A stretch of DNA of 64,000 nucleotides from Eledone cirrhosa (lineage: Eukaryota): the NCBI GenBank assembly GCA_964016885.1, contig OZ024743.1, positions 42,718,001-42,782,000 of the forward strand, written 5' to 3'. Of the stretch, positions 327 through 58,242 are shown piece after piece (the first letter of the stretch is position 1; each line of letters opens with the position of its first letter). The position numbers and the translations under genes are program-made. The notes under the pieces were generated by a model. The model did no database searches, was not told the origin of the DNA, and saw only the letters and a program-made list of their open reading frames with translations.

Positions 327-348
327 GATATATATATATATATATATA

Positions 349-1521
349 AGAAAGTGATGTTATTTTACAAAATGAAAAATAACTGAGGTGTCCTACACGA
401 GTGAAAGTATAAAGAAATAAAGATGAAATCGAAAATGCAACTGGAGTCTTATTTTAAAAAAATATATATATTTATTTGGTTCCTTTAGCGGTTTCTCAGT
501 TCTTCTGCTTTTCAAAAGTAGAGTTGAGATGGAGGATCTGTGGTTTTTCTCACATCTGATGTGAGAAAAACCACAGAAAAACCACTGACGAACGATTCCA
601 ACCGTGACCATCCCCACTGAAAAGTTTCGTGAAATAGTCTTTTTAAGACTATATAGAGCATTTGTAGTTTTTCCAAATTGAAGGATGAGTATTTAAGCTT
701 TATTTTATTCTGAGTTAAGACTCTATTGGTTTTCCCTGGATTTCACAAAATCTGTGGATAAAATATGTCTTGATTTTTTTAAAATTGAGTTTGAATTATT
801 TTCCCATATCTTACGTTAATTATTTTCCATTTTGACCTTATAGTCACTTATATATTATGAAATACTCACAATAATTTCTATATTTTCATTTATATTTATA
901 CTCGGAATGTTTCCTAGAATGCTTAAAATTATTTGTGACTAATCCCGGTCTTTTTTTTTTAAGAACCGCAATAATATTGCTATTTTGCCGAACTCCTTAC
1001 ATTTTGTAGAGTTTTTTCGGAATGTTTTTGAGTGCTGTTTCTTGTAAATAGAAATTAGTCTCATTCTGACCTCACCAGCCATGTCTCTCCATGTGTGTTT
1101 ATTTTTATAATTCCGCACGAGGTGAACTGGCCTGCTTTTAAATTCCCTTTTTGGCATATTTTGGCAGTGCTTTAGGGTTATCGTGTTTCAGCTCTACTGA
1201 CGAACGACCCCAACAGTGACCACCCCCACTGAAAAGTTTCGTGAAATAGTCTTTTTAAGACTATATAGAGCATTTGTAGTTTTTCAAAATTGAAGGATGA
1301 GTATTTAAGCTTTATTTTATTCTGAGTTAAGACTCTATTGGTTTTTCCCTGGATTTCACAAAATCTGTGGATAAAATCTCTGTCTTGATTTTTTAAAATT
1401 CAGTTTGAATTATTTTCTCATATCTTACGTTAATTATTTTCCATTTTGACGTTATAGTCACTTATATATTATATATTATGAAATATGTTGGCTTCTTGCT
1501 CACAATAATTTCTATGTTTTC

Positions 1522-10334: not shown

Positions 10335-10686
10335 ATATAACACATGCCAAAGTACTGCCAACCACAACAACGAAATCCACAGTAAAAAAATGAGATAGAC
10401 CCAACTGTGGCATTTGCATCAACCTAATAGAGGGTTCGGAATTCTATTTCAAAGAAGGATAACGTTTTATAGTAAAACACAATTTCACATGCGCATCAGA
10501 AAATCTAATATATCTATTAACTTGCTCAGACTGTCGAGAACAATACATAGGCCAGACCAAAAACAGGCTCCGCCAACGTATGACTGTCCATAGATTCCAA
10601 ATTAAAATACGTGAATACACGAAAATACCACTGAGTGAACACAGTGATACCTGTGCCGCCCAAAATCACCCCATATGGTCCACCCC

Positions 10687-11067: not shown

Positions 11068-11621
11068 CACTTGTCTTAATAGGCATTTGAATTGTCAACA
11101 GGCTGCGGTTCGCACACACATCCCTGCTGACCATTATCACAACAACGAACACGTTACTACTACTACACACACACACACACACACACACATATTTGTTGTG
11201 AAAGAGTTATTTCTCAGTCAGCCGACACGAACCTACATTTGGCGCAAAATCAATTTTTTACATTCACATGACCTCTACCGACCACTTAAAATTGTTTTGA
11301 CCACAAGAATTTTTGCAACACGAATTGGCGCCAAACATATTTTAATACCACTGGAGCCACTTTTTTAACTTAAAAACAGGTAGAATTCCCAAAACTAATC
11401 AGATCAGAGCAAACATCACGGACGCTCTATCTCAAAATTATTTTTGAAAAGCATTAGAAATGCGCAACCGGTAAAACTTAAAACCAAAACTGAATACTAA
11501 CCAATACAATTACTAATTCTCACTTATTCCTAATTAAACTATTTTTCACTGTGAACAATTTGTCAACATTTTCTATTCCGTTTACATATATATATACACA
11601 CACACAGACACAAACACACAC

Positions 11622-12226: not shown

Positions 12227-12250
12227 TTTATATATATAAATATATATATT

Positions 12251-12610
12251 AGAAAGTGTGTTTTTTTTTACAAATTGAAAAATAACCGAAGTGTCCTACA
12301 CGAGTGAAAGTATAAAGAAAAAGAGATGGAATCGAAAATGCAACTGGGGTCTTATTTTAAAAAAATATATATATATATATTTGGTTCCTTTACCGGTTTC
12401 GCAGTTCTTCTGCTTATCAAAAGTAGAGTTGAGATGGAGGGTCTGTGGTTTTTCTCATATCTGTGAGATGTGAGAAAAACCACAGACCCTCCATCTCAAC
12501 TCTACTTTTGAAAAGCAGAAGAACTGCGAAACCGGTAAAGGAAGCAAATAAATATATATTTTTTTTAAAATAATAAGACTGCAGTTGCATTTTCGATTTC
12601 ATCTCTTTTT

Positions 12611-12614
<4 letters not shown>
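12251..12614. mobile_element. Fold-back element, family A
   Basis: Palindrome centred near 12466, tail at left, (TA)n flanks; hammerheads at 12388-12423 (-) and 12505-12540 (+). Confidence 0.85.
12505..12540 (+). ncRNA. Minimal hammerhead motif with U3-A8 core (family A)
   Basis: CTT TTGAAAA GCAG AAGAA CTGC GAAA CCGG TA AAG; palindromic ACCGGT at stem III. Confidence 0.75.
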
Positions 12615-12649
<35 letters not shown>

Positions 12650-34106: not shown

Positions 34107-34156
<50 letters not shown>

Positions 34157-34163
<7 letters not shown>

Positions 34164-34519
34164 AGAAGATGAAATCGAAAATGTAACTGGAGTCTTATTT
34201 TTTTTAAAATATATATATTTATTTGGTTCCTTTACCGGTTTCGCAGTTCTTCTGCTTTTCAAAAGTAGAGTTGAGATGGAGGGTCTGTCGTTTTTCTCTG
34301 TGGTTTTTCTCACATGTGAGAAAAACCACAGACTACCATCTCAACTCTACTTTTGAAAAGCAGAAAAACTGCGAAACCGGTAAAGGAACCAAATAAATAT
34401 ATATATTTTTTTAAAAGAAGACTCCAGTTGCATTTTCGATTTCCTCTTTTTTTCTTTATACGTTCACTCGTGTAGGACACCTCGGTTATTTTTCATTTTG
34501 TAAAAAAAACTCACTTTCT
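34157..34519. mobile_element. Fold-back element, family A
   Basis: Palindrome centred on CTCACATGTGAG, tail at right; hammerheads at 34230-34265 (-) and 34350-34385 (+). Confidence 0.85.
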
Positions 34520-34609
34520 AATATATATATATATTTATATATATATATAGAATATATATATATATATAGACGTATATGGGACACAAAGCTTCTAATTAAA
34601 TGGAAGGCA

Positions 34610-57890: not shown

Positions 57891-57931
<41 letters not shown>

Positions 57932-57935
<4 letters not shown>

Positions 57936-58073
57936 AAAGAGATGAAATCGAAAATGCAACTGGAGTCTTATTTTAAAAAAAATATATATATTTATTTGGT
58001 TCCTTTACCGGTTTCGCAGTTCTTCTGCTTTTCAAAAGGTGAGTTGAGATGGAGGGTCTGTGGTTTTTCTCAT
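57932..58073 (-). mobile_element. Family A single arm
   Basis: U3-A8 hammerhead motif at 58003-58038. Confidence 0.8.
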
Positions 58074-58242
58074 ATATACATTTATAATCGATAAAATAAT
58101 GTATCAATATTTAGATTGCACATATATATACCAATGGTGACTTCCATCGTCATCTATAGATAATTGTGATAAGTAGATAACAATAGGTTTATGCAAAGTG
58201 TGTTGGGAGTCAACAAGGTACGAGGTGTACAATGCCACTAAA

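What the first reader, a model, noticed from the sequence alone, without database searches (positions are those of the whole stretch)
12388..12540. Family A: 36 nt hammerhead with a fixed compensatory U3-A8 core (UUGANAA)
Seen: CTT TTGAAAA GCAG-AAGAA-CTGC GAAA CCGG TA AAG in six arms (483, 12388, 12505, 34230, 34350, 58003). The copy at 12388 changes only the freely variable position 7 (TTGATAA); the copy at 483 has stem mutations. Established: C3 and G8 form a tertiary Watson-Crick pair, and the U3-A8 double change can retain activity. Inference: a natural covariant ribozyme that CUGANGA searches would miss, probably cleaving as a dimer through ACCGGU.
Basis: partly seen in the sequence, partly recalled or inferred. 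Interest (0 to 1): 0.78.

Follow-up and report, generated by a model that had tools for sequence, protein, structure and literature searches.

The report
Penelope retrotransposon hammerhead, U-A core
This is a small hammerhead-shaped RNA motif carried in the terminal repeat of a jumping gene with thousands of copies in this genome; it likely cuts RNA only weakly and in pairs, and its unusual U-A core pair has already been reported in this kind of element.

Summary
The six arms are real and not chance. They belong to the terminal repeat (pLTR) of a Penelope-like retrotransposon: intact copies elsewhere in the genome carry the motif on both sides of a reverse transcriptase plus GIY-YIG gene. The U3-A8 core is fixed: 11,820 exact matches, 23 with G8, none with C3-G8. 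Related families keep U3-A8 while both helices change in compensatory pairs, so the fold is under selection. U3-A8 hammerheads in Penelope elements, including opposite-strand pairs, were published in 2014, so the headline is known. Cleavage is untested. The window arms are short inverted remnants; read-through RNA would form one long hairpin that masks the ribozyme, and the position-7 change at 12388 is ordinary decay. A sister family of 11,336 copies has fixed a further core change, A13C. Of 108 copies none begins at the predicted cut, while 68 begin 69-73 nt upstream, so uncut RNA was copied. The GUA triplet also reads as a splice donor, for which no direct support was found.

The parts
12505..12540 (+). 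Family A hammerhead arm: helix I CUU/AAG, core UUGAAAA, helix II GCAG/CUGC, GAAA, palindrome ACCGGU, predicted cut after 12537
12388..12423 (-). Family A hammerhead arm with position 7 = U, predicted cut after 12391
12243..12463 (-). 5'-truncated pLTR copy running from the common 5' end through the hammerhead to the long tail (about +147 from the cut); 92% identical to intact element L136
12466..12617 (+). Inverted 5'-truncated pLTR copy ending at the short tail (about +79), joined to (TA)n; 95% identical to L136
12296..12393 (-). Candidate 5'-UTR intron (donor CCG|GUAAAG overlapping the cleavage triplet, polypyrimidine tract, UAG acceptor); inferred, unproven
   Evidence: no spliced copy
341..558 (-). 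Family A copy; its hammerhead (483-518) has broken helices II and III
34154..34298 (-). Family A copy, short tail; hammerhead 34230-34265
34311..34527 (+). Family A copy, long tail, inverted partner of the former; hammerhead 34350-34385 with a loop II change
57927..58075 (-). Family A solo copy; hammerhead 58003-58038 with the 4-bp helix I of the youngest subfamily
11441..11476 (+). Sister family A2 hammerhead: U3-A8 core plus A13C, helix II GCAUU/AAUGC, helix I UUU/AAA
10338..11594 (+). 5'-truncated family A2 Penelope-like element with a broken GIY-YIG remnant (10338-10673, 94% to L140) and its 3' pLTR

Best explanation
The motif is a minimal type I hammerhead fold with a U3-A8 core in the terminal repeat of a Penelope-like retrotransposon, and it likely cleaves after GUA only weakly, as a dimer through ACCGGU or with help from the element's protein. 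Shown: it sits on the sense strand about 166 nt before ORF1 and again about 1.1 kb after the endonuclease gene; helices I and II covary across related families while U3-A8 is kept; the window arms are short, inverted, 5'-truncated insertions in (TA)n. Inferred: transcription starts about 72 nt upstream of the cut; reverse transcription starts in the tail downstream of the motif and runs through it, which needs uncut (or re-ligated) RNA; a monomer cannot close helix III, which would keep single-ribozyme RNAs uncut, while tandem transcripts with two sense copies could pair and cut. The window arms themselves are predicted to be masked in a long hairpin and are passengers.
For: Direct repeats each with the motif flank ORFs with YLDD, a CX4CxxC linker and GIY-YIG. 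23 of 30 loci chosen by ORF1 have the motif 165-174 nt before the ATG. 11,820 matches, control 0; 23 with G8. Further U3-A8 families with position 7 = C or U, tied to ORF2 at about 45-55% identity for family C. On 13 hand-picked family rows, 95.2% of cells paired and 7 of 8 pairs changed on both sides; 0 of 500 shuffles reached the covariation score; slid controls paired at most 45.7%. Folding: monomer active form +2.4 kcal/mol against an MFE of -5.7; dimer active forms -17.3 and -15.5 against a dimer MFE of -19.1 that holds the ACCGGU duplex. Whole 12251-12620 transcript folds as one hairpin, -232.7. Same kind of motif and arrangement in PMC4209133.
Against: No cleavage data. 0 of 108 copies begin within 9 nt of the predicted cut, so there is no genomic trace of cut templates. 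Sister family A2 amplified to 11,336 matches with A13C and a three A-U pair helix I, and its MFE hides the core; A13 changes are said to cost 10-100-fold (PMC4075628 passage). In a type III hammerhead only the G-C swap rescued positions 3 and 8 (PMC9901934 passage). In the Anolis element, ribozyme mutants did not affect insertion in vitro and no RNA reads ended at the site (PMC11167929 passage). The search patterns fixed the core, G10.1-C11.1 and ACCGGUA, so their conservation across families is partly by construction, and copies with broken stems were left out of the covariation alignment.
Confidence: 0.7

Rival explanations
1. The fold is a hammerhead by descent but no longer a working nuclease in this clade; it is kept as a structure for protein binding, packaging or reverse transcription.
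For: A13C fixed in a family of 11,336 matches; 0 of 108 5' ends at the cut; low activity of non-G-C swaps at 3-8 in one scan; Naiad elements spread without canonical hammerheads (PMC8557442 passage).
Against: Families about 50% apart in protein keep the catalytic layout, and position 7, the free spacer, is the core position that varies between them; the youngest family A lineage has a fourth helix I pair. U3-A8 is reported active in vitro (PMC3088659, citing a paper not held here).
Confidence: 0.2
2. The GUA triplet doubles as the splice donor of a 5'-UTR intron, so splicing and self-cleavage would exclude each other, and part of the conservation around the cut comes from splicing.
For: CCG|GUAA in families A, A2 and C; a pyrimidine tract with YAG at +97 (A), +106 (A2, with UACUAAC upstream) and about +190 (C). 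Penelope elements have 5'-UTR introns (PMC2377424 and PMC8557442 passages), and in D. virilis the intron end abuts helix I.
Against: 0 of 17 genomic rows with an altered acceptor flank show the spliced junction, and none was in the stored loci; this is weak, since these elements keep their introns. The donor is a modest match, G16.2-U16.1 is already required by the palindrome, and A17 was fixed by my patterns.
Confidence: 0.15
3. The match to a hammerhead is chance within a foldback or MITE-like DNA repeat.
For: The window copies are long inverted repeats without coding sequence; no Rfam hammerhead hit.
Against: The repeat is the pLTR of an RT plus GIY-YIG element; covariation across families; 0 hits in 60 controls.
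Confidence: 0.02

Closest known systems
U3-A8 minimal hammerheads of Cercyon Penelope-like elements in Schistosoma mansoni (Cervera and De la Pena 2014, PMC4209133; read: main text parts 1-2 of 4 and supplement file 2 part 2 of 3)
   Same: U3-A8 core (their alignment lists UUGAAAAA and UUGAUAAA rows), pLTR location, short helix I, G10.1-C11.1, mostly truncated copies, pairs on opposite strands, about 1,300 hits there.
   Different: Here there is no extra base between 9 and 10.1, helix II is 4 bp, and helix III keeps 2 bp with a 2-nt palindromic loop. Copy number is about ten times higher, and a sister family adds A13C.
Small palindromic helix III variant of Penelope hammerheads (D. virilis, Marsupenaeus japonicus; same paper)
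   Same: 2-bp helix III with a palindromic dinucleotide; the shrimp row has A17 and no extra base after A9.
   Different: Those have C3-G8. In D. virilis the intron's 3' end abuts helix I; here the candidate overlap is a donor at the cleavage triplet.
Natural U3-A8 hammerheads (Perreault et al. 2011, PMC3088659; read: section 8 and passages)
   Same: Same covariation, described as active in vitro.
   Different: There several examples from a broad survey; here a whole clade of element families.
PAc element of Anolis (PMC11167929; read: passages and section 3 part 1 of 2)
   Same: Hammerhead at the pLTR-ORF junction, internal start of reverse transcription, tail, uncut RNA as main template.
   Different: Poseidon clade, C3-G8 core, single ORF; its ribozyme was tested and needs the protein.
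Dimeric short-stem-III hammerheads of Penelope elements (Lunse et al., title seen in a reference list; text not held, content recalled)
   Same: Short stem III and cleavage as dimers.
   Different: I could not check whether it lists U3-A8 or A13C variants or this host.

Membership tests
Canonical hammerhead consensus (C3-G8) | Core CUGANGA...GAAA | tested here: not met
   U3 and A8 fixed; no Rfam hammerhead hit. Not filed here.
U3-A8 Penelope hammerhead variant | Watson-Crick-compatible 3-8 pair with U4, G5, A6, A9, G12, A13, A14 intact | tested here: met
   Family A. Family A2 fails at A13.
U3-A8 Penelope hammerhead variant | Helices I and II supported by compensatory change | tested here: met
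   7 of 8 pairs changed on both sides in 13 hand-picked rows.
U3-A8 Penelope hammerhead variant | Palindromic, minimal helix III with NUH triplet | tested here: met
   ACCGGU and GUA; duplex forms in the predicted dimer.
U3-A8 Penelope hammerhead variant | Located in both pLTRs of a Penelope-like element | tested here: met
   L031, L128, L129, L133, L136, L137, L138.
min-HHR consensus in the strict sense (Cervera 2014) | Extra unpaired base between 9 and 10.1, and long helix II | tested here: not met
   A9 is followed directly by G10.1; helix II is 4 bp. Filed under the small-helix-III variant instead.
U3-A8 Penelope hammerhead variant | Self-cleavage at the triplet, dependent on dimer or protein | not testable with these tools
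   Needs a bench assay.
EN+ Penelope-like elements | Reverse transcriptase followed by C-terminal GIY-YIG endonuclease | tested here: met
   PF01541 above cut-off; PF00078 at or just below cut-off; YLDD motif; 716 homologues at E<=1e-30.
EN+ Penelope-like elements | pLTRs, inverted 5'-truncated copies, tail on one side | tested here: met
   features as described in PMC8557442 passages.
Neptune/Nematis clades | CX2-5CxxC linker before the endonuclease; (TA)n targets | tested here: met
   CGRSNCGTC in ORF2; (TA)n junctions.
Neptune/Nematis clades | Placement in a reverse transcriptase tree with named references | not tested
   No named reference proteins were held; the clade is inferred from the linker only.

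The most novel reading that the evidence does not exclude
In this clade the hammerhead's cleavage triplet is also the splice donor of the 5'-UTR intron, making a switch in which the RNA is spliced for translation, kept whole for retrotransposition, or cut as a dimer; and loss of G8 has freed position 13, so that an U3-A8-C13 core, three changes from the textbook core, still works in more than 11,000 copies.
Probability: 0.12. Interest if true: 0.7.

Novelty: new member of a known kind. Interest (0 to 1): 0.28.

Why it matters
As first stated it matters little: U3-A8 hammerheads in Penelope elements are in print. Its use is as a test system for an open question, what these ribozymes do for the element. 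This genome has intact copies, sister families with and without A13C, and thousands of insertions whose 5' ends record which RNA was copied; they point to uncut RNA starting at a fixed site. If the A13C family still cleaves, the tolerated hammerhead core is wider than assumed. If it does not, a Penelope lineage has spread with a dead ribozyme.

Tried and rejected
Rfam scans: no hammerhead among the 150 of 205 rows shown for the window or among the 4 rows for 12480-12560; the miRNA hits reflect the inverted repeat, and the MALAT1 hit (19.8 bits against a cut-off of 70, E 0.61) is taken as chance. The repeat finder was swamped by microsatellites. A DNA search with the 11395-11500 stretch found nothing although a pattern found 11,336 matches. 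A C3-G8 ancestor inside family A: only 2 decayed copies matched, which fits chance double mutation, so the compensatory switch itself is not observed here and predates these families. One search used a helix I register off by one; it was corrected. Expression: no RNA holder listed. Four contig sets of unrecorded kind showed no splice joint, but part of the stretch was skipped as repeat and contigs cannot show RNA ends; their loose ends at 1018-1021, 1169 and 1237 of L136 match the copy ends, and these runs may be the assembly's own sample. Spliced genomic copies: 0 of 17 rows. Literature: 'hammerhead + A13C' gave 0 papers; 'hammerhead, C3U, G8A, compensatory' 0; 'Penelope-like, slippery, frameshift, hammerhead' 0. 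Lunse 2017, Przybilski 2007, Nelson 2008 and Hammann 2012 were not held, one supplement file of PMC4209133 was not searchable, and the mutant heat maps of PMC9901934 are figures I could not see; any of these may bear on A13C and on U3-A8 rates.

Full report
Observation. The six arms are present as described. Four lie on the minus strand and two on the plus strand. The 12388 arm differs only at position 7, the 483 arm has broken helices II and III, and the 34350 arm has a loop II change. A seventh, diverged arm lies at 11441-11476. A descriptor built on structure alone hit 5 times in the window and 0 times in 60 Markov controls. Rfam hammerhead models did not score the motif.

Host element. The window lies in a 3.0 Gb genome. 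Following copies whose flank continued upstream led to full-length elements: two direct repeats about 4.7-4.8 kb apart, each with the motif, around reading frames with a YLDD reverse transcriptase, a CX4CxxC linker and a GIY-YIG endonuclease. Of 30 loci chosen by ORF1, 23 have the motif 165-174 nt before the ATG on the sense strand; the other 7 had no match on that strand in the 260 nt upstream. ORF2 has 716 homologues at E<=1e-30. This is an endonuclease-bearing Penelope-like element. The linker points to the Neptune or Nematis clade (PMC8557442 passages); no tree was built. The window arms are 145-221 nt pieces of its pLTR, 92-95% identical to the intact copy L136. At 12243-12617 two such pieces are joined head to head in (TA)n, one with a long tail and one with a short tail, the usual arrangement for these elements.

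Is U3-A8 fixed? Yes. A pattern that left positions 7 and 8 free matched 11,820 times, control 0. G8 occurs in 23, and the 10 of these that I examined keep U3. C3-A8 occurs in 51. A search for CUGANGA with any helix II and the same palindrome gave 13 hits against 2 in the control, none with the exact family stem; a looser family pattern gave 2 decayed copies. Variation among copies is neutral decay: in 103 rows chosen by downstream sequence, four of them duplicates, position 7 changed once, G5 four times and G12 six times.

Selection shows between families. A pattern that forced a change at pair 10.2-11.2 found 192 matches, control 0, mostly further families with U3-A8, position 7 = C or U and other helices; family C is tied to ORF2 remnants at about 45-55% identity. 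On 13 rows that I picked, one to three per family and leaving out copies with visibly broken stems such as L178, L179, L180, L187 and L190, 95.2% of cells paired and 7 of 8 pairs changed on both sides; no shuffle of 500 reached the score, and slid controls paired at most 45.7% (one search had a register error). The core, G10.1-C11.1 and ACCGGUA were fixed by the pattern, so only helix I and the outer helix II pairs are a fair test. All these families have U3-A8, so the switch is old and was not caught in the act.

Mechanism. The predicted monomer cannot close helix III (+2.4 kcal/mol for the active form, MFE -5.7). In the predicted dimer the ACCGGU duplex forms, and the active forms lie 1.8-3.6 kcal/mol above the MFE; for the youngest subfamily, with a 4-bp helix I, 1.4-2.4. 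A transcript through the window insertion folds as one hairpin of -232.7 kcal/mol that pairs each sense arm with the antisense of the other, so these arms are predicted to be silent. I then asked which RNA was copied. Taking copies only by sequence downstream of the predicted cut (100 of 5,747 matches listed, all on one contig; loci), 108 distinct copies were measured: none begins within 9 nt of the cut, 11 begin 10-33 nt upstream, 68 begin 69-73 nt upstream and 8 extend beyond 100 nt. Their 3' ends fall mostly at +75-79 or +145-149. In the sister family, 11 of 30 copies begin at the homologous spot, 65-80 nt upstream. I infer a transcription start there and internal priming in the tail, as shown for the Anolis element (PMC11167929). 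The inserted copies came from uncut or re-ligated RNA. This fits a weak, dimer-gated ribozyme, and it fits a dead one equally.

Against activity. Sister family A2 has 11,336 matches; 97 of the 100 listed rows, counted by eye, have GCAA in place of GAAA, that is A13C. Its helix I is three A-U pairs and its MFE hides the core. It is also a Penelope-like element, 56% identical to family A in ORF2, and the window copy carries an endonuclease remnant. A13 changes are said to cost 10-100-fold (PMC4075628 passage). G8 and A13 pair in one described fold (PMC6257768 passage), so loss of G8 may relax position 13; this is speculation. In a full pairwise scan of a type III hammerhead only the G-C swap rescued positions 3 and 8 (PMC9901934 passage), whereas Perreault 2011 calls U3-A8 active in vitro. 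Activity is thus context-dependent and untested here.

Possible intron. The cleavage triplet reads CCG|GUAA in families A, A2 and C, followed by a pyrimidine tract and YAG at +97, +106 and about +190. Penelope elements carry 5'-UTR introns (passages). No spliced genomic copy was found (0 of 17 rows). This stays a lead.

Comparison with print. Cervera and De la Pena 2014 report U3-A8 in Cercyon elements of Schistosoma, about 1,300 hits, pairs on opposite strands about 100-700 bp apart, and low dimer-dependent activity of a related C3-G8-type minimal motif; their supplement lists UUGAAAAA and UUGAUAAA cores and a shrimp motif with the same small helix III. Two earlier notes of this scan reached the same filing in other genomes; they are not independent support. 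A search for A13C with hammerhead found no paper, but several key papers were not held.

Verdict. A real, selected hammerhead fold in a Penelope-like pLTR: a new member of a known kind. Cleavage as a weak dimer is likely but unshown. Interest 0.28, owed mostly to the A13C sister family and to the map of copy ends.

Noticed in passing
window 11441-11476; L066-L095, L140: Sister family A2, 11,336 matches, has U3-A8 plus A13C and a weak helix I.
   Followed up: partly
L136:2371-2458; also L128, L131, L132, L134, L137, L139, L140: Intact elements have two overlapping frames, ORF1 (400 aa) and ORF2 (775 codons, -1 frame), with UUUUUUA in the overlap; the same heptamer sits at the same place in family A2. 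Likely a programmed -1 frameshift; no strong downstream structure was predicted. A frameshift after ORF1 is mentioned for some Penelope-like types in the Fig. 1 legend of PMC8557442.
   Followed up: partly
window 12463/12466; L136:1019: Copy 5' ends pile up 69-73 nt upstream of the predicted cut (68 of 108), a likely transcription start; the short copies may be early-stop cDNAs or a self-propagating non-autonomous form.
   Followed up: partly
L098-L127; window 58003-58038: All 23 hammerheads beside near-intact ORF1 belong to a subfamily with a fourth helix I pair (CCUU/AAGG), against 32 of 103 rows among short copies.
   Followed up: partly
window 9350, 10139, 17706, 17849; 16459, 16832, 59637; 1921, 5936, 26229, 31203; 196: Other hammerhead-like repeat families with the canonical C3-G8 core and other palindromes (AUGCGCAU, AUAUAUAU).
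   Followed up: no
L148-L197: Further low-copy U3-A8 families (cores UUGACAA, UUGAUAA) with different helices.
   Followed up: partly
proteins P0012, P0037, P0041, P0056: Close ORF2 homologues are labelled as proteins of bacterial symbionts of bivalves, probably host DNA in those assemblies.
   Followed up: no
L035, L036, L042; L032:2-1444: Family A copies sit beside what look like LTR-element remnants, and one beside a C2H2 zinc-finger frame.
   Followed up: no
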